A DNA stretch of 64,000 nt from Clostridia bacterium (GTDB lineage Bacteria; Bacillota; Clostridia; Christensenellales; CAG-138), in contig JAVBWI010000019.1 of NCBI GenBank assembly GCA_036677445.1, forward strand, positions 1,535-65,534, written 5' to 3'. Within the stretch, counting starts at the first letter, position 1. Each line of letters begins with the position of its first letter. The notes beneath the pieces are model-generated. The model did not search any database, was not told where the DNA came from, and worked only from the letters and a program-made list of their open reading frames with translations. Positions 57,294 to 64,000 of this stretch are shown here, piece by piece. Both the position numbers and the translations under genes were made by a program.

Positions 57294-60200
57294 ATGAGGT
57301 ATTCATCACCCCTAAAGCGCATGGCATACATAACGCTTGCATTCCTGATGCTGCTGTCCCTGTTCCCCCATAAGGCAAAAGCTGCCGCCACTACCCTCGG
57401 GAGCAAACCGGTAGGCTCCATTGTCAAAATCAAGGAAGATGGCGTTTATCAAAATTACATCGTCATTCAGTCATATTATGAAGATAACCCCGGAACGCTT
57501 CTCATGAGGCAGAAAGGTACTGCCGGCAATGAAAATGGTTGGGGCTTCAACAGCCTTGCCGCAGGTCCTTACTTCGGGAGTTCACTGGATCAATGGCTCA
57601 CAACCTACTACAGAAATAAATTGGAAAGCGGTATTCTTTCCAAGCTGCAGCCAATAAACATGCACTGTGATCAGCAATACGCAACACGAGATATATTTAC
57701 TTTTTCTATCACGGAGCTTGGCTTATCACATTCAAATTACCGAAGCAATGGCTCCCACATACCTTACTTCAACGTCAACACAAGAATAATGGGAAGCGAT
57801 TACGGAAGCCCTGCACCGTACCTTACCCGTTCAGCAAATCGATATGATGAAATGTACAGCGCAAAGATAACGACTAGTGGGACTATAATTGAAAACTACA
57901 AAATCGTCTTTGGATATTTTATGTTCCCCTTGTTCGTCCTTCCGGATGATATGCTGGTCGCAGATACCGGAGAAATTCTTGTGAACACGCCTCCCACCGC
58001 TCCCGAATCGATCACGGCAATGCACAGCGGAAACAATATCAATGTCAGCTGGACAATCTCCACAGACGCGGATGGAAATCTTACGGGGTACATCCTGGAG
58101 CGAAGCGTAAACGGAGAATCATGGAGTGTTGTCAAAGACACTGCCTTCACTACATATGAAGACACTCTTGCCGAAGGCTGGCCCTCCGCCGTATACCGTG
58201 TGAAGGCATATGACAGTGACGGGCTGGAATCGGAATATACGGTCAGCGATGTTCTACCGTTGCCTTACATCACCGGAATTGACGTTCCGGCAACCATGCC
58301 GTATACGGGCGGGGATGCCACAATAACCGTTTCCGGCGTTAACCTGTATGACGGTATCACGATCAAGGTTTTCGACGGAATAGTGGAAGTACTAAGCGGC
58401 AGCACCACAGGCAACGGTACCGAGCAGGCCGTCACACTTCTGTTTCCAGCAAACACAAGTTTTACAACAGACAAAACCTATACGGTAAAAGCGTCTCTGG
58501 ACGAGGGAGCGACTTGGAGCAACTTCACAAAAACCGTGGTGGTGGAGCGAAATCTTTCACCCCTCATTTCAAATGTAACAGTGTCTCCTGTCAGCCTCGA
58601 TCACAACGGAGGTACAGTCAACATAACTGTCATAGGGTTCAATCTGTCGGACGGGATGCTTGTGGAGGCATACGCCGGTGAGGATACAATTGAGGGTCCC
58701 ACGACCGGTGATGATATGACGCAAGCCGCCAGCCTGGAGTTGCCTCCGAGCCAGGTTTACGTGGATGCAACGGTTTATGGCGTGCGCGCTTCGTTGGATG
58801 ACGGCGAAAACTGGTTTATTTCGCCTATGGAAGTAGCCGTCTCCCCGCAGGTTCTACCTGCGCCCATGATAACTCGGAACCTGGATACGGATATGGCGCT
58901 GGTGGAAAAGGATACTCTGGAATTGACCATACAGGCGAGCGCGGAAGCAGGCGCGCTTTCGTATCAGTGGTATAAAGACGGGGTGCCAATTCCAGAAGAA
59001 AAGGCGGATACGCTTACGATACCGGATATCGCGCTCACGGACGCTGGCGAGTATTCCTGCACCGTCACAACCACGATACAGGGCAAGACAGCCAGCGCCA
59101 CAAGCCGCGTATGCAGTGTTTCTGTCCAAAAGCAGGCGGATTTACCTACGATACTTGAGAATCTGCCAGAAGAGAAAACGGTTATAGAGTGGCACGAGCT
59201 CTCCCTGTCCGTTACGGCAAGCTGTGAAACCGGATCTTTGTCATATGAATGGTTCAAGGACGGCACATTGATTTCGGGAGAAACGGAAGCAGTATTGCTT
59301 ATCCCGGAAGCTGAACCGGAGGATACCGGAACCTATTTCTGCAAGATCACCAGCACTTATGGCCTGTCGCAGAAATCCGTAGATAGCATTTCCTGCGATG
59401 TGGCTGTTCAAGAAAACATTCCGGTATTTGAAAACGACTTGCCGGATAAGCAAGCTGTTATCGAGGCGCATACATTTGCGTTGTCGGTATCCACCTCCAG
59501 TCCTGCCGGAGAGATATCCTATCAATGGTACAAGGATAATTTGCCGTTGACAGGAGAAACATCTCCGGAGCTGTGCATCCCTTCCGTTGTAACGGAGGAT
59601 GCAGGTGAATTCTTCTGCCGTGCTACGGCTACATATGAGACATATCAGCGGTCGGCAGATAGTAACACCTGCACGGTCAGCGTCGAAGGGAATTTGCCCG
59701 AGTTAGTTGATGATCTTCCTTCTGAAATGACGCTCATTGAAACGCAGGACCTTACGCTATCGGTAACGGCAAACAGCCCGGACGGGGGACTTTCCTATGC
59801 CTGGTATAAGGATGATGCTTTACTCCCCAGAGAAATCGAGCCAACATTGCACATATCCTCCGTCACGATGGCCCATGCGGGCCTTTACTTTTGCCGGATC
59901 GTCAATACTTACGGGGAAATGCAATGGGCGGTAGACAGCACGGTCTGCTCCGTCAGCATTCAGGAAGGACCCGCCACACCCGTGATCGAGCAGGATTTGG
60001 AAGACAACGTTACTGTAACTTCAGGCAGCGGTTTATCCCTTGCCGCAAGCGCATCCAGCGCAAACGGCACGCTTTCCTGCCAATGGTATAAAGACGATGC
60101 CGCTTTGCCGGACGCGACCAATAGCTCGTTGTTCATTGAGTCCGTCATCTCTGACGATGCTGGCGAGTATTATTGCATCTTTACCAACACCATAGGGGAG

Positions 60201-60782
60201 GTGACGGCATCCGCTCGCACGCGCACCTGCCTTGTCGTATATGATGACCCGGAACCTGATCCGAGTCCGACGCCGGATCCAGAACCCTCGCCAGAACCTA
60301 GCCCCAGCCCGTCGCTGGAGCCTGATCCCAGCCCGTCACCGGATCCCACTCCAACGTCGGAACCCACCCCAACGTCAGAACCCAGTTCAAGTCCGTCGCC
60401 AGAGCCTAGTCATAGGCCGTCACGAACGCATCGGCCCAAAACTACGCCAAGCCCAACGCCCAGCTCTACCCCCAGCCCAACGCCGAAGGCGAGTCTCCGC
60501 CCAACGTTGAGGCCCAGGGTGAGCGCGACACTGTCTCCCAGCCCGATCGTGAGTCCCAGCCCATCCCCTGACCCCGGCCCCAGCCTAACGCTCAATCCGG
60601 AACCGGAACCTATTCCTACCGTCTCGCCAACACCATCCACTCCCATCGCGACTGAAGCAGACTTGCCCGATCCCGAACCTTTCAAGCAAGACGGTACTGC
60701 CATTCTTGTTGGAATCGGTATCGTGGTCATTCTTATATTGGCCGTGGCTATCTATTTGCATCAGAGGCGAAAAAGGGTGTAA
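57294..60782 (+). CDS. Large membrane-anchored surface protein: N-terminal domain, FN3, two Ig/TIG-like modules, five I-set-like Ig repeats, Pro/Ser/Thr linker, C-terminal TM anchor
   Basis: Signal peptide MRYSSPLKRMAYITLAFLMLLSLFPHKAKA. An FN3-like region (PPTAPESI...YRVKAYDSDGLES). Five ~90-aa repeats with W(Y/F)KD and D.G.Y.C motifs. A PEPDPSPTPDPEPSPEPSPSPS... linker. The C-terminus GTAILVGIGIVVILILAVAIYLHQRRKRV has no LPXTG. AGGAGG precedes ATG 57294. Confidence 0.85.
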   Translation: MRYSSPLKRMAYITLAFLMLLSLFPHKAKAAATTLGSKPVGSIVKIKEDGVYQNYIVIQSYYEDNPGTLLMRQKGTAGNENGWGFNSLAAGPYFGSSLDQWLTTYYRNKLESGILSKLQPINMHCDQQYATRDIFTFSITELGLSHSNYRSNGSHIPYFNVNTRIMGSDYGSPAPYLTRSANRYDEMYSAKITTSGTIIENYKIVFGYFMFPLFVLPDDMLVADTGEILVNTPPTAPESITAMHSGNNINVSWTISTDADGNLTGYILERSVNGESWSVVKDTAFTTYEDTLAEGWPSAVYRVKAYDSDGLESEYTVSDVLPLPYITGIDVPATMPYTGGDATITVSGVNLYDGITIKVFDGIVEVLSGSTTGNGTEQAVTLLFPANTSFTTDKTYTVKASLDEGATWSNFTKTVVVERNLSPLISNVTVSPVSLDHNGGTVNITVIGFNLSDGMLVEAYAGEDTIEGPTTGDDMTQAASLELPPSQVYVDATVYGVRASLDDGENWFISPMEVAVSPQVLPAPMITRNLDTDMALVEKDTLELTIQASAEAGALSYQWYKDGVPIPEEKADTLTIPDIALTDAGEYSCTVTTTIQGKTASATSRVCSVSVQKQADLPTILENLPEEKTVIEWHELSLSVTASCETGSLSYEWFKDGTLISGETEAVLLIPEAEPEDTGTYFCKITSTYGLSQKSVDSISCDVAVQENIPVFENDLPDKQAVIEAHTFALSVSTSSPAGEISYQWYKDNLPLTGETSPELCIPSVVTEDAGEFFCRATATYETYQRSADSNTCTVSVEGNLPELVDDLPSEMTLIETQDLTLSVTANSPDGGLSYAWYKDDALLPREIEPTLHISSVTMAHAGLYFCRIVNTYGEMQWAVDSTVCSVSIQEGPATPVIEQDLEDNVTVTSGSGLSLAASASSANGTLSCQWYKDDAALPDATNSSLFIESVISDDAGEYYCIFTNTIGEVTASARTRTCLVVYDDPEPDPSPTPDPEPSPEPSPSPSLEPDPSPSPDPTPTSEPTPTSEPSSSPSPEPSHRPSRTHRPKTTPSPTPSSTPSPTPKASLRPTLRPRVSATLSPSPIVSPSPSPDPGPSLTLNPEPEPIPTVSPTPSTPIATEADLPDPEPFKQDGTAILVGIGIVVILILAVAIYLHQRRKRV
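58848..60240 (+). repeat. Five tandem ~270-bp coding repeats (Ig-like modules) inside the surface protein gene
   Basis: Repeated protein pattern: L.L.V.A......LSY.WYKD......E...L.I......DAG.Y.C..T.......S......V.V. Confidence 0.8.
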
Positions 60783-61040
60783 CTTTGTGACCAAATGAGG
60801 ATGTGCTCGATTGGAGATAAAGGCAATATCAAGAAAAACGTTGACGCCCCCGGAGGGATACTTTCTGGTATCCCTTCGGGGCAAGGGCAAGGATGATATC
60901 TATCAGCCCCAAAAGAACATTGCGAAAAGCACTTTGTCTGCAGCGCTTGCGCGTATTTGCATGATTTCCCGTAGGTTAGGTGATTATCTTAGAATTTTAT
61001 CAGAACAGCTATCCCACGGGATGTCGAAAGAATGCATATA

Positions 61041-61208
61041 TGGTATAATATTGGAAATCCGATAGATTTCGATATAGCTATGTTTGCATTAGCTATAATG
61101 CAAAGCTTAGTGAAGTACCGGTAGTAGCAATATAATCGGAACCTCGGCGAAGATTGTAGCAAAAATGCGAAGCTCGTTCTTGAATTGTAAAATTAATATT
61201 CTTATACT
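61041..61208 (+). promoter_or_regulatory. Candidate promoters and palindromic leader upstream of the nuclease-helicase pair
   Basis: An extended -10 TGgTATAAT at 61041-61049. A second candidate TTGAAT-17 nt-TATACT at 61180-61208. Overlapping inverted repeats ATAGCTA/TAGCTAT (61074-61096) and TTTGCATTA-gcta-TAATGCAAA (61083-61104). Confidence 0.4.
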
Positions 61209-61217
61209 TTTGGGTGT

Positions 61218-62039
61218 ATGGAGATATTTAATATGAATCCGCCTAAGTACATCGACTGGTTTGTAGAGGAAAGCACCGTCACTTTAGAAGATGGCATTCC
61301 TATCTCATGCTACCGCCTAGACTATACAGTGGATGATGCTATTTATTGTGAATGGGCGTTGCATCTTCGCCAACACTATGAATCTGATGCTGAAATAGAA
61401 GAGTCCCTTGCGGTAACGGGGATGTCTGTTGAGCAATATTTGCGAACCCGTGTCATACCACAAAAAGATGATCCTTTCGGGCCAACATCTCGTTCAAATG
61501 ATTTTACTGAAATTATGGTTTCCGACCTACTGGAGTTCATACAGGGTTATACCGTGCCTCGTTGTAAACAACGGAATCGGTCAGGTAAGACTCAAAGTGA
61601 GCATGGCACTGACATTCTCGCATATAAGTATGCAAAAGCCACCAAGAAACCTGATAGTGAAGATGAATTGTTAGCGGTTGAGGTAAAGGCAGGCTTATCC
61701 TCCGATAAATACGATCCGATAAGTAATGCTGTTACCGATTCCCATGCTTATGATGAGGTCAGGCATGCACTTACATTGAATTACTACCGTAAAAAACTAC
61801 GCAACATAAATAATGAACAGGCGAATGAAATTGCTCGTTTCCAACAAAAGTCCGAACATGATTATCTTATTACCTATATAGCCGCAGCAATTATCAGCCG
61901 TGATCATATAGCTGATGATATTGTGTTGGGCATTAGGGGTGACGAACTGGAATTACGCCAAGATAATAGAGTTTTTCTAGTTCATGGGAAAAAGCTAATG
62001 GCTTTGGCGCATGACATATTTGAGAGGTGTATAAAATGA
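61218..62039 (+). CDS. hamA: PD-(D/E)xK-type putative nuclease, HamA (DUF1837)-like by motif and gene context
   Basis: 273 aa. It carries GTD(132)ILAY...23 aa...LLAVE(155)VK(157)AG, a D...ExK arrangement. Its stop overlaps the start of a DEAH helicase (ATGA at 62036-62039). An alternative start is ATG 61233, preceded by GGAG. The family name was not verified by an HMM. Confidence 0.7.
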   Translation: MEIFNMNPPKYIDWFVEESTVTLEDGIPISCYRLDYTVDDAIYCEWALHLRQHYESDAEIEESLAVTGMSVEQYLRTRVIPQKDDPFGPTSRSNDFTEIMVSDLLEFIQGYTVPRCKQRNRSGKTQSEHGTDILAYKYAKATKKPDSEDELLAVEVKAGLSSDKYDPISNAVTDSHAYDEVRHALTLNYYRKKLRNINNEQANEIARFQQKSEHDYLITYIAAAIISRDHIADDIVLGIRGDELELRQDNRVFLVHGKKLMALAHDIFERCIK

Positions 62040-64000
62040 TTTTTAATAGACGATCAAATTACATGCTCAAATACGAAAAATCAAAGTCAAAACTGGTTGA
62101 ATTTGATGTCGCGGAAGAAAACTACCCAAGTTATCCCCTGAATTCCGATGATCTAACTTACACAACCATTTTTGCCCTATCACGCTTTTGCGAAGAGAAC
62201 ATAGAAAATCCGCGTTCACCACAGCTACCAGAATTAAAATCAGAATTAGCAATTGTTTCACAGTATTATGATTCAACAGTAAAAACCCGACTTCGTCAGA
62301 ATCATAGCAGGTTGTTTTTATTATTAGGTTCAACCGCCTATTTTCTATCTGAAAATTTCGGAAGTGCTAAAGTTCTTATTGAGCAGATTGATATTCAGGA
62401 ACCCCATGATAGTATTATGACATTGTTACACGTTACATTGCTATTTTTACTTACAGGGAAATGGGTAGAAGTTCCCGCGGAAAGGAAATATTATCGTCAA
62501 TATGTGGATGGATTAGTAAGCCATTTTACGGAAGGTACTTCTGCTGAAATTGTTTTTGATGCTCTATGCAAAATGCGTGATAGAGTGCATCAGTCCACTG
62601 ATGTATTTGCCATCAGCTACATAGACTTTCTCTTTTCCGTGATAATCTGCGCGATAGACCATTCTGCTTGGATTCTATTACCGCAGTATTCAAATACAGA
62701 TCCTGAACAATGGAAAGACTATTTGTCCAAGTCAGGTAGCATTAAACTTTTATGGCCTGCTCAAAAAGTTATTCTACAAGCTGGTGCCCTCACCGGAAAC
62801 GACCTAGTTGTCCCCCTACCTACCGGGGTAGGGAAAACAAAAAGTATTGAAATTCTCTTGCGCACAAAATTCATGAAGCAAGGAACTTGTATAGCGATTA
62901 TTATTGCCCCGTTACGGGCATTGTGCAATGAAATCGCAACGGACTTAATGTCCGCTTTAGCAGGCGAAGCTATTATAAATCAATTTACCGATACTACGCA
63001 GGAAGATTTTGATCTTAAACTTCTCTTCAACACGAAGTATGTGTTCGTTTGTACCCCGGAAAAGTTTTCCTATATTTTTCGTCATGAGCCTAGCTTTCTC
63101 ACAGATATTCAGCTTTTTATATTTGATGAGGCACATCTATTTGATGATGCTTCAAGAGGCGCACAATATGAGCTTCTGGTATCCGAAATAGCCAGAAGCC
63201 GGAATGAATCTGCGCAAATGGTGTTGTTTTCAGCCGTTCTTTGTAATGCCCGCCAAATAAGCGGATGGCTGTTCAATGATGAAGAAGCAACAATTGACTA
63301 TTCATTAGTAACATCAACCGAAAAGTCGATAGGCTTCCTTTCTTCTGATCAAACCATACATTACTATGAAAAAGACGATATGGCAGAAGAAAGTTTCTAC
63401 GTCCCCCAAAGTATAACTTTTCAGGAGCTTAAACTCCATGGGAAAGAAACAAAGCAGCGGTTTTTCCCAGAGATAGATGCGCAAGATATAGCCATATATT
63501 TTGCAATTAAATTATGCAACCAAGGGGGTGTGGCAATTTACGCAGGCCAGGTACGCAGCATCCCCCCAATCATGCGTCGCATTGTTGAGATTAGCGAGCG
63601 CGGTTATGATTTTTCAAATTTGCATAGAACAGTCAATTTCAGTGAAGCTATTAAGCTGTCAAATATGTTCGCGCTGCACTATGGAAAAGACTATGGACTA
63701 ACGCAAGCCGCCAGATTAGGTGCATTTCCGCACTATGCGGATTTGCCTAATGGGATCAAAATGGCAATTGAACATGCACTGCGTAAAAGGCATGTTTCCT
63801 TTATCGTTTGTACAACAACCCTAGCAGAGGGCGTAAACATTCCAATAAAATACCTGTTCCTCACCACTTTCAGTCTTGGCACCACAAGTGTTCAAATACG
63901 TAAAATGCAGAACATGGTGGGAAGAACAGCAAGGTCAGGTATCCACACAGAAGGTAGCGCCATAATCACTGATTTCAAATTCTACGATAATCGCTTGAAT
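62036..64000 (+). CDS. hamB: SF2 DEAH-box helicase with ~260-aa N-terminal accessory region, HamB-like; 3' end outside the window
   Basis: The open frame runs from ATG 62036 to the window end (655 codons, no stop, hence absent from the ORF track). Motifs: LWPAQ, PLPTGVGKT (~62818-62844), FDEAHLF (63122-63142), FSAV, TTTLAEGVNIP and QNMVGRTARSG (63908-63940). Confidence 0.85.
   Translation, partial: MIFNRRSNYMLKYEKSKSKLVEFDVAEENYPSYPLNSDDLTYTTIFALSRFCEENIENPRSPQLPELKSELAIVSQYYDSTVKTRLRQNHSRLFLLLGSTAYFLSENFGSAKVLIEQIDIQEPHDSIMTLLHVTLLFLLTGKWVEVPAERKYYRQYVDGLVSHFTEGTSAEIVFDALCKMRDRVHQSTDVFAISYIDFLFSVIICAIDHSAWILLPQYSNTDPEQWKDYLSKSGSIKLLWPAQKVILQAGALTGNDLVVPLPTGVGKTKSIEILLRTKFMKQGTCIAIIIAPLRALCNEIATDLMSALAGEAIINQFTDTTQEDFDLKLLFNTKYVFVCTPEKFSYIFRHEPSFLTDIQLFIFDEAHLFDDASRGAQYELLVSEIARSRNESAQMVLFSAVLCNARQISGWLFNDEEATIDYSLVTSTEKSIGFLSSDQTIHYYEKDDMAEESFYVPQSITFQELKLHGKETKQRFFPEIDAQDIAIYFAIKLCNQGGVAIYAGQVRSIPPIMRRIVEISERGYDFSNLHRTVNFSEAIKLSNMFALHYGKDYGLTQAARLGAFPHYADLPNGIKMAIEHALRKRHVSFIVCTTTLAEGVNIPIKYLFLTTFSLGTTSVQIRKMQNMVGRTARSGIHTEGSAIITDFKFYDNRLN

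What the first reader, a model, noticed from the sequence alone, without database searches (positions are those of the whole stretch)
61041..64000. Translationally coupled small nuclease-like protein plus large DEAH helicase (Hachiman-type layout) as AT-rich cargo at the island end
Gene 1 (61218-62039, 273 aa) has no housekeeping counterpart. It carries a PD-(D/E)xK-style signature: GTD132ILAY, then LLAVE155-V-K157AG (D codon 61611-61613; E-V-K 61680-61688).

Its stop overlaps the ATG of gene 2 (ATGA, 62036-62039). Gene 2 is an open frame of at least 655 codons that runs off the window and is missing from the supplied ORF track because it has no stop. It has a ~260-aa non-helicase N-terminal region followed by SF2 motifs: LWPAQ, PLPTGVGKT, DEAH, TTTLAEGVNIP and QNMVGRTARSG.

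A DUF1837-type nuclease coupled to a Ski2-like/DEAH helicase is the defining architecture of the Hachiman (HamA/HamB) anti-phage system. The locus is the most AT-rich stretch of the window and sits inside a tRNA-linked island next to ICE-type genes, which is the expected neighbourhood for a defence cassette.

If gene 1 does not fall in DUF1837, this would instead be an undescribed nuclease-helicase pairing. In either case it is the best candidate for a dedicated conflict system here.
Basis: partly seen in the sequence, partly recalled or inferred. Interest (0 to 1): 0.85.

Follow-up and report, generated by a model that had tools for sequence, protein, structure and literature searches.

The report
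Ordinary two-gene Hachiman anti-phage system

Summary

Gene 1 is HamA (DUF1837). It matches PADLOC model HamA1 end to end (E 2.7e-81) and passes the Pfam HamA cut-off. Its predicted fold matches solved E. coli HamA best. The residues shown essential in other HamA proteins (D, E, D, E-x-K) are invariant in 20 homologues.

Gene 2 is HamB. The window part matches PADLOC HamB1 at E 3.9e-210. A public contig 100% identical to window 60232-64000 completes it to 1020 aa, matching the model end to end (E 4.7e-277). Its predicted fold matches solved HamB over the full length (TM 0.74).

There is no HamC, no N-terminal fusion on HamA, and no adjacent methylase or specificity gene, so this is type I (I-A) Hachiman. 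DNA similarity to relatives covers exactly hamA-hamB, which marks a self-contained two-gene cassette. It sits in 40% GC DNA, against 56.5% for the chromosome, downstream of tRNA-Arg.

The mechanism is inferred from published work: HamB senses damaged or free-ended DNA and activates HamA to degrade DNA. This is a new member of a known kind, of low interest.

The parts
61180..61208 (+). Possible promoter of the hamAB operon (TTGAAT, 17 nt, TATACT)
   Evidence: Consensus scan. The number of such sites in the region is no higher than in shuffled sequence, so this is weak evidence and rests on position only.
61220..61223 (+). Shine-Dalgarno GGAG, 9 nt upstream of the likely hamA start at 61233
   Evidence: Read from the sequence. 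DNA similarity to relatives starts at about 61217.
61233..62039 (+). hamA: DUF1837 PD-(D/E)xK-type nuclease, 268 aa.
   Evidence: PADLOC HamA1 PDLC00161 E 2.7e-81. Pfam HamA 33.3 bits against a cut-off of 25. P0001 is 100% identical and 268 aa long. The best Foldseek hit is 8vx9_A, E 6.2e-5, probability 1.00.
61500..61511 (+). HamA acidic motif D-F-T-E (D90/E93 in 268-aa numbering; D95/E98 in 273-aa numbering)
   Evidence: Invariant in 20 homologues. It corresponds in order and spacing to S. thermophilus HamA D90/E93, which are essential for defence (PMC13064477).
61611..61613 (+).
   Evidence: Invariant; codon GAC. It corresponds to the essential D127 of S. thermophilus HamA.
61680..61688 (+).
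   Evidence: Invariant. E(x)K mutations abolish defence or nuclease activity in ECOR31 HamA (E138A/K140A) and in DEC14B HamA (E150A/K152A).
62036..62039 (+). ATGA overlap of the hamA stop and the hamB start, preceded by GAGG at 62024-62027
   Evidence: The same ATGA junction is present in all 8 related loci examined (L001, L003-L009).
62036..64000 (+). hamB: Ski2/Hel308-like SF2 helicase, first 655 of 1020 codons. It runs off the window and would end at window-equivalent 65098.
   Evidence: PADLOC HamB1 PDLC00188 E 3.9e-210. Full length from the 100%-identical contig L001/L010 gives E 4.7e-277. PDB HamB 8vx9_B matches at E 5.7e-32. Foldseek 8vxa_A gives TM 0.74.
62036..62740 (+). HamB N-terminal all-alpha-helical region (about aa 1-235), inferred to be the HamA-binding bundle (NAH)
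   Evidence: The AlphaFold model has helices only in residues 4-230. The full-length structural alignment to ECOR31 HamB supports the assignment. The NAH binds HamA in the solved complex.
62750..62839 (+). HamB Q-motif region (LWPAQ) and motif I / Walker A (PLPTGVGKT)
   Evidence: W240, A242, Q243, G264, G266, K267 and T268 are invariant in 26 homologues.
63122..63136 (+). HamB motif II / Walker B (F-DEAH)
   Evidence: D364, E365 and H367 are invariant.
63812..63940 (+). HamB RecA2 motifs V (TTTLAEGVNIP) and VI (QNMVGRTARSG)
   Evidence: T593, T595, G599, Q625, G629, R630 and R633 are invariant.

Best explanation
This is a complete type I (subtype I-A) Hachiman anti-phage defence operon, hamA-hamB. 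It is carried as a self-contained two-gene cassette in a low-GC island downstream of tRNA-Arg.

Shown here:
- The family membership of both proteins.
- Intact nuclease residues (D-x2-E ... D ... E-x-K) and intact helicase motifs.
- The conserved 4-nt overlap of the two genes.
- The cassette boundaries.

Inferred from published work on homologous systems: HamA and HamB form a heterodimer through the N-terminal helical bundle of HamB, which keeps the HamA nuclease in check while the complex surveys intact DNA. When phage infection or DNA damage produces free or single-stranded DNA ends, these enter the HamB helicase and trigger ATP hydrolysis. The resulting conformational change activates or releases HamA. 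HamA then degrades phage and host DNA indiscriminately, which aborts the infection.
For: - Profile matches: PADLOC HamA1 E 2.7e-81 and HamB1 E 3.9e-210; full-length HamB E 4.7e-277 over the whole model; Pfam HamA above its gathering score, plus DEAD and Helicase_C.
- Folds: the HamA model (pLDDT 74.9) matches 8vx9_A best. The HamB model (pLDDT 83.4) matches 8vxa_A/8vx9_B at TM 0.74 over about 1130-1170 columns, against 0.44-0.53 for the PolQ and Hel308 helicases ranked next.
- Catalytic residues D95, E98, D132, E155 and K157 (273-aa numbering) are invariant in 20 homologues. They correspond to residues shown essential experimentally.
- The ATGA junction is conserved in all related loci.
- DNA similarity to relatives in unrelated genomic contexts covers only hamA-hamB.
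- No DUF3223/HamC was found among the downstream genes.
- Plasmid homologues at 29-31% identity are annotated 'Hachiman antiphage defense system protein HamA'.
- GC is 0.40-0.42, against 0.565 for the chromosome.
Against: - No experiment exists for this locus or for this subfamily.
- Sequence identity to the structurally and biochemically characterised systems is low: 14-16% in the structural alignments. HamA finds no PDB sequence hit, even with a profile.
- The last 365 codons of hamB are not in the window. They are inferred from a 100%-identical contig from another sample.
- The modelled C-terminal third of HamB is all-helical and about 150 aa shorter than ECOR31 HamB. It probably lacks that protein's OB-like barrel, so DNA-end sensing may differ in detail.
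- The HamA-HamB complex was not modelled.
Confidence: 0.93

Rival explanations
1. hamAB is only part of a larger restriction-like or DISARM-like system. In this reading it works together with the downstream PLD-like nuclease, the two unknown genes and the 2311-aa methylase + SNF2-helicase protein.
For: All these genes lie on the same strand within 13 kb. The PLD protein matches DrmC weakly (E 2.2e-5) and MkoC weakly. The giant protein has an Eco57I-like methylase region and an SNF2 helicase, with partial DrmD and BrxH matches.
Against: - DNA similarity to relatives stops at the hamB stop codon.
- Relatives carry hamAB between tryptophan- and lysine-biosynthesis genes with none of these neighbours.
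- No DrmA or DrmB (DUF1998) is present. The DrmD and BrxH matches cover only about 100 residues of the generic helicase C-domain.
- GC differs sharply between the genes: 0.34-0.44 against 0.55 for the giant gene.
- To my knowledge, methylase-SNF2 giants of this kind are common cargo of conjugative elements.
Confidence: 0.04
2. The pair is a housekeeping or mobile-element DNA-repair or maintenance module (a Hel308-like helicase with a nuclease), not an immune system.
For: HamB is a Ski2/Hel308-type helicase. It matches NCBIfam Hel308 models at E 1e-35 to 2e-31 and matches Hel308 and PolQ structures. Published Hachiman systems respond to DNA damage.
Against: - The Hel308 model scores are far below their cut-offs: 109-123 bits against 887-1200.
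- The full-length match is to HamB models and the HamB structure.
- The gene is always coupled to HamA.
- Its distribution is patchy and points to horizontal transfer: Clostridia-type MAGs and a Saccharibacteria MAG, in unrelated contexts.
Confidence: 0.02
3. The copy is decayed or non-functional. hamB would be broken beyond the window end, as it is in one relative.
For: The window ends inside hamB. In the Pygmaiobacter MAG (L008) the hamB frame stops after 341 aa and about 370 nt of similarity are missing.
Against: A contig 100% identical over the 3769 shared bases carries an intact 1020-aa hamB. All catalytic and helicase motifs within the window are intact.
Confidence: 0.03

Closest known systems
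Type I-A Hachiman, E. coli DEC14B HamAB (PMC11914072), and the PADLOC subfamily HamA1 PDLC00161 / HamB1 PDLC00188
   Same: It is a two-gene operon. HamA consists of DUF1837 only and has an intact (D/E)xK site; with the 61233 start, E150/K152 carry the same numbers as in DEC14B HamA. HamB is an SF2 helicase of about 1000 aa. The PADLOC subfamily models are matched end to end.
   Different: I did not compare the sequence directly with the DEC14B proteins. This subfamily has not been tested experimentally, as far as the papers I read show.
E. coli ECOR31 HamAB (PDB 8VX9, 8VXA, 8VXY; PMC12278908)
   Same: It is the best structural match for both proteins. Shared features are the N-terminal helical bundle, two RecA domains and the helical C-terminal region of HamB, the D-E(x)K nuclease site in HamA, and the ATP-binding motifs.
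   Different: - Identity in the structural alignments is only 14-16%, and HamA shows no detectable sequence match.
- Motif II is DEAH here and DEGH in ECOR31.
- HamB is 1020 aa against 1174 aa. The model has no beta-strand elements after residue 644 (DSSP shows only isolated bridge residues near 690-697), so the C-terminal OB-like barrel of ECOR31 HamB is probably absent. PMC13064477 says this barrel is restricted to one subtype.
Streptococcus thermophilus HamAB (type III-B in the scheme of PMC13064477)
   Same: The essential HamA residues D90, E93, D127, E147 and K149 correspond by order and near-identical spacing to D90, E93, D127, E150 and K152 here. Walker A Lys and motif II Asp are required in HamB.
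   Different: No PezAT toxin-antitoxin or AbiJ gene is attached here. The gene just upstream is an 84-aa ORF with no family match. Subtype placement by phylogeny was not done.
AbpAB / type I-B Hachiman of E. coli K-12 (PDB 8ZUE)
   Same: It pairs a DUF1837 protein with a Ski2-like helicase. 8zue_A is the second-best fold hit for HamA.
   Different: AbpA has an N-terminal Cap4-type nuclease fused to a catalytically dead DUF1837 domain. Here HamA is 268 aa, has no extra domain, and keeps its active-site residues.

Membership tests
Hachiman type I (PADLOC/DefenseFinder definition) | A HamA protein with the DUF1837 domain | tested here: met
   Pfam PF08878 scores 33.3 bits against a cut-off of 25. 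PADLOC HamA1 PDLC00161 gives E 2.7e-81 over residues 8-272 and model positions 4-268 of 271.
Hachiman type I (PADLOC/DefenseFinder definition) | A HamB superfamily-2 (Ski2/Hel308-like) helicase matching HamB models | tested here: met
   PDLC00188 gives E 3.9e-210 for the window part and E 4.7e-277 for the full length, model positions 1-1032 of 1037. DEAD and Helicase_C are above their Pfam cut-offs.
Hachiman type I (PADLOC/DefenseFinder definition) | hamA and hamB adjacent on the same strand | tested here: met
   The ATGA overlap lies at 62036-62039 and is conserved in all related loci examined (L001, L003-L009).
Hachiman type I (PADLOC/DefenseFinder definition) | No HamC (DUF3223), whose presence would make it type II | tested here: met
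   No DUF3223 hit was found in the ORFs scanned: the 84-aa ORF upstream, the three ORFs downstream, and the giant protein.
Hachiman subtype I-A (PMC11914072) | HamA is DUF1837 only, with no N-terminal Cap4, peptidase or other domain, and has conserved PD-(D/E)xK residues | tested here: met
   The protein is 268 aa and the model match spans the whole protein. D, E, D and E-x-K are invariant in 20 homologues.
Hachiman (structural definition, PDB 8VX9) | HamA has the restriction-endonuclease-like fold of solved HamA | tested here: met
   Foldseek ranks 8vx9_A first (E 6.2e-5, probability 1.00, TM 0.49-0.51), then 8zue_A and type II restriction enzymes. Model confidence is moderate (pLDDT 74.9).
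Hachiman (structural definition, PDB 8VX9) | HamB has an N-terminal helical bundle (NAH) plus a RecA1/RecA2 core and a helical C-terminal region, as in solved HamB | tested here: met
   8vxa_A and 8vx9_B rank first with TM 0.74 (normalised by query length) over 1128-1173 columns. The PolQ and Hel308 helicases ranked next reach 0.44-0.53. Residues 4-230 are all helical.
Hachiman (structural definition, PDB 8VX9) | C-terminal OB-like barrel of ECOR31-type HamB | tested here: not met
   The model has no beta-strand elements after residue 644, only isolated bridge residues near 690-697, and is about 150 aa shorter. This feature is subtype-specific and does not define the family.
Hachiman (functional definition) | HamA-HamB heterodimer, ATP- and DNA-end-triggered DNA degradation, and phage protection | not testable with these tools
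   This needs complex modelling or purification, plus plaque assays.
Type I/III restriction-modification (res/HsdR helicase-nuclease) | A cognate methylase (and specificity) gene in the same operon | tested here: not met
   hamB is followed by a PLD-like gene and two unknown genes. The nearest methylase domain lies 3 kb downstream inside a 2311-aa SNF2 fusion protein, which is not conserved with hamAB. The ResIII Pfam hit is only the generic helicase N-domain.
DISARM | DrmA helicase + DrmB (DUF1998) + DrmC (PLD) core | tested here: not met
   Nothing matches DrmA or DrmB across its length. There is only a weak DrmC match for the PLD gene (E 2.2e-5) and partial DrmD and DrmA matches to a helicase C-domain.
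Hel308 housekeeping repair helicase | A score above the NCBIfam equivalog cut-off | tested here: not met
   Scores are 109-123 bits against cut-offs of 887-1200.

The most novel reading that the evidence does not exclude
This HamAB subfamily (PADLOC HamA1 PDLC00161 / HamB1 PDLC00188) is common in gut-type Clostridia MAGs and is also found in a Saccharibacteria MAG. It shares only about 15% identity with the solved systems and appears to lack the C-terminal OB-like barrel of ECOR31 HamB. It could therefore sense a different DNA signal (for example dsDNA rather than 3' single-stranded ends, as reported for the OB-less type I-B system) or control HamA differently. That would make it a mechanistic variant rather than a plain copy.
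Probability: 0.12. Interest if true: 0.35.

Novelty: new member of a known kind. Interest (0 to 1): 0.13.

Why it matters
This matters little for discovery. It is a clean, automatically detectable instance of a defence system reported in more than 5% of prokaryotic genomes (PMC12278908), with solved structures and published mechanisms.

Its practical value is annotation. The identical proteins are in public databases without a name, and one close homologue is mislabelled 'SAVED domain-containing protein'.

The locus also marks the stretch downstream of tRNA-Arg as a defence and mobile island. The unannotated neighbours there (a PLD-like nuclease and two unknown proteins at 34-44% GC) are more likely places to find something new than hamAB itself.

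Tried and rejected
- Sequence search of HamA against PDB chains found nothing, either as a single sequence or as a 20-sequence profile. The link to solved HamA only appeared at the fold level.
- NCBIfam has no model that matches HamA.
- The idea that hamAB belongs to a restriction-modification or DISARM-like operon with the downstream PLD gene and the methylase-SNF2 giant was rejected. Similarity to relatives ends at the hamB stop, and no DrmA or DrmB is present.
- I looked for a conserved third gene. A 267-aa ORF sits 40 nt upstream of hamA in four related loci (L003-L006). It has no Pfam or PADLOC match and is absent from the window.
- The window's 84-aa upstream ORF (60811-61065) has no family match.
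- The promoter scan gave one well-placed site, but site counts in the region are no higher than in shuffles.
- I could not recover the NCBI record name or the organism of the window. Cluster look-up returned no accession or name. The closest named relatives are Firmicutes/Pygmaiobacter MAGs.
- I found no integrase or att repeat that would define the island ends within the sequence available.
Full report
**1. Observation**

The ORF list shows 61218-62039 (+, 273 aa). Translation from 62036 is open for all 655 codons to the window end. The junction ...AAAATGATT puts the second gene's ATG (62036-62038) over the first gene's TGA (62037-62039).

- D132 is GAC at 61611-61613.
- E155-V-K157 is 61680-61688.
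- LWPAQ, PLPTGVGKT, F-DEAH, TTTLAEGVNIP and QNMVGRTARSG are all present.

GC is 0.40 in 62001-64000, the lowest bin of the window. For comparison it is 0.565 in 1-54000 and 0.49 in 54304-61217.

One correction concerns the start codon. The start used by the 100%-identical database protein P0001 and by nearly all homologues is the second ATG, at 61233, which gives 268 aa. GGAG lies 9 nt upstream of it, and DNA similarity to relatives begins at about 61217. In that numbering the nuclease residues are D90, E93, D127, E150 and K152.

**2. What the two genes are**

Gene 1 passes the Pfam HamA (PF08878, formerly DUF1837) gathering score, at 33.3 bits against 25. It matches PADLOC model HamA1 PDLC00161 across its whole length, E 2.7e-81.

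Gene 2 carries DEAD and Helicase_C domains. It matches PADLOC HamB1 PDLC00188 at E 3.9e-210 over model positions 1-665 of 1037, which is what a truncated HamB should give. NCBIfam Hel308-type models match only far below their cut-offs, 109-123 bits against 887-1200.

**3. Completing hamB**

HamA is 100% identical to P0001. A Logan contig that encodes P0001 (L001/L010) is 100% identical to window 60232-64000 over 3769 bases, with no mismatch or gap. On that contig hamB is 1020 aa, which corresponds to a window-equivalent end at 65098. The full protein matches PDLC00188 end to end (residues 1-1014 against model 1-1032 of 1037, E 4.7e-277).

That the window's own copy is intact beyond 64000 is an inference from this identity.

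**4. Active sites**

In an alignment of 20 HamA homologues (52-85% identical to the window protein), D95, E98, D132, E155 and K157 (273-aa numbering) are invariant. Their order and spacing match the experimentally essential residues of other HamA proteins:
- S. thermophilus HamA: D90, E93, D127, E147, K149 (PMC13064477).
- ECOR31 HamA: the E(x)K pair E138/K140 (PMC12278908).
- DEC14B HamA: the E(x)K pair E150/K152 (PMC11914072).

In 26 HamB homologues the Q motif, Walker A (G264, G266, K267, T268), D364-E365-x-H367, and motifs V and VI are invariant.

**5. Structure**

HamA has no detectable sequence match in the PDB, even with a profile. Its AlphaFold model (pLDDT 74.9) matches ECOR31 HamA (8vx9_A) best: E 6.2e-5, probability 1.00, TM about 0.5. 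Next come K-12 AbpA/HamA (8zue_A) and type II restriction endonucleases.

HamB matches ECOR31 HamB by sequence in the helicase core, E 5.7e-32. Its model (pLDDT 83.4, pTM 0.81) aligns to 8vxa_A and 8vx9_B over essentially the full length, TM 0.74. The PolQ and Hel308 helicases ranked next reach only 0.44-0.53.

It corresponds to the N-terminal helical bundle that binds HamA in the solved complex.

There is one difference. The model has no beta-strand elements after residue 644 (DSSP shows only isolated bridge residues near 690-697), and the protein is about 150 aa shorter than ECOR31 HamB. The C-terminal OB-like barrel is therefore probably missing. The literature already describes that barrel as subtype-specific.

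**6. A two-gene cassette**

The ATGA junction is present in all related loci examined (L001, L003-L009). DNA similarity (67-81%) between the window locus and relatives spans only L010 986-4864, which is window-equivalent 61217-65095. That runs from the hamA ribosome-binding site to the hamB stop.

In the closest distinct relative (L003-L006) the pair lies between tryptophan-biosynthesis genes and thioredoxin and lysine-biosynthesis genes. Other relatives are in a Firmicutes MAG, a Pygmaiobacter MAG where hamB is broken, and a Saccharibacteria MAG at 65% identity.

No HamC/DUF3223 is present, and HamA has no N-terminal fusion. The locus is therefore type I, subtype I-A in the scheme of PMC11914072.

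**7. Neighbourhood**

Window 1-54 kb is ordinary chromosome: PolA, SMC, ScpA/ScpB, penicillin-binding proteins and ABC-transporter binding proteins. After tRNA-Arg(CCG) at 54227-54303 GC falls. The genes that follow are:
- a 132-aa ORF of unknown function;
- ParA and ParB;
- a 1164-aa Ig-repeat surface protein;
- hamAB.

Past the window end come a PLD-like nuclease, two unknown proteins, and a 2311-aa methylase + SNF2 helicase protein.

This fits an integrated mobile element carrying defence cargo. However, I saw no integrase, relaxase or secretion genes in the stretches available, so 'ICE' is not demonstrated.

**8. Mechanism (inferred from published homologues)**

HamAB forms a heterodimer. 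HamB restrains HamA while the complex surveys intact dsDNA. Entry of a free or single-stranded DNA end into the helicase triggers ATP hydrolysis and a conformational change, which activates or releases HamA. HamA then degrades phage and host DNA, an abortive-infection outcome (PMC12278908; PMC11914072).

For this locus only the parts list and the intact catalytic residues are shown. The rest is inferred.

**9. Rivals**

- A larger restriction-modification or DISARM-like system is unlikely. The neighbours are not conserved with hamAB, no DrmA or DrmB is present, and the helicase matches are only partial.
- A housekeeping Hel308-type repair role is unlikely, given the scores, the obligate coupling to hamA and the patchy distribution.
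- A decayed copy cannot be excluded from the window alone, but the identical contig argues against it.

**10. Verdict**

The system is a canonical, already described defence system, found here with standard models. It is a new member of a known kind and of low interest.

Noticed in passing
window 54092-54275: Just upstream of the intact tRNA-Arg(CCG) gene (54227-54303) lies a 71-nt tandem repeat (2.6 copies, 92% matches). It consists of degenerate copies of the tRNA's 5' half plus a spacer. Rfam scores the copy at 54156-54212 at only 18 bits. These may be scars of repeated integration or excision at this tRNA, but that is unexplained.
   Followed up: partly
window 54373-54392 and 54457-54477: Short TTACTACAT(T) direct repeats lie between the tRNA terminator and the first island ORF (54555-54953, 132 aa, no Pfam or PADLOC match). 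They could be protein-binding sites of the element, for a regulator, a partition protein or a replication protein.
   Followed up: no
window 57288-60782 (+): A 1164-aa predicted surface protein. It has an N-terminal DUF6273 domain, at least five eukaryote-type immunoglobulin domains (Ig_3, Ig_2, I-set), a long Pro/Ser/Thr-rich linker and a C-terminal membrane anchor. It is encoded on the island between parAB and hamAB.
   Followed up: partly
L010 4999-7862 (window-equivalent about 65230-68093, just past the window end): Three genes follow hamB: a 249-aa PLD-like nuclease (PLDc_2, weak DrmC and MkoC matches, GC 0.34) and two proteins of 279 and 342 aa with no Pfam or PADLOC match. They are low-GC cargo next to a defence system and are candidates for a further, undescribed defence module.
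   Followed up: partly
L010 7998-14867 and beyond: A 2311-aa protein combining an Eco57I-like N6-adenine methylase region (about aa 790-980) with an SNF2-type helicase (about aa 1490-2050). GC is 0.55, unlike the hamAB region. Only partial helicase-domain matches to DrmD and BrxH models were found. To my knowledge this resembles the large methylase-helicase proteins of conjugative elements.
   Followed up: partly
L008 10001-13600 (Pygmaiobacter MAG CAXXMP010000002.1): The hamB copy is broken. The frame stops after 341 aa and about 370 nt of similarity are missing. This is either a decaying Hachiman copy or an assembly error.
   Followed up: partly
L009 9752-12766 (Candidatus Saccharibacteria MAG CANAUU010000021.1): The same hamAB subfamily (HamA 65% identical, same ATGA junction) occurs in a Saccharibacteria MAG. 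This points either to transfer between very distant phyla or to a binning artefact.
   Followed up: no
L003 9158-9961 (also L004, L005, L006): In the 86%-identical relatives, a conserved 267-aa ORF with no Pfam or PADLOC match lies 40 nt upstream of hamA. It is absent from the window, which has an unrelated 84-aa ORF at 60811-61065 instead.
   Followed up: partly
protein P0013: A HamA homologue 80% identical to the window protein is named 'SAVED domain-containing protein' in NCBI/nr. This looks like a misannotation, since the precomputed domain for it is HamA (PF08878).
   Followed up: no
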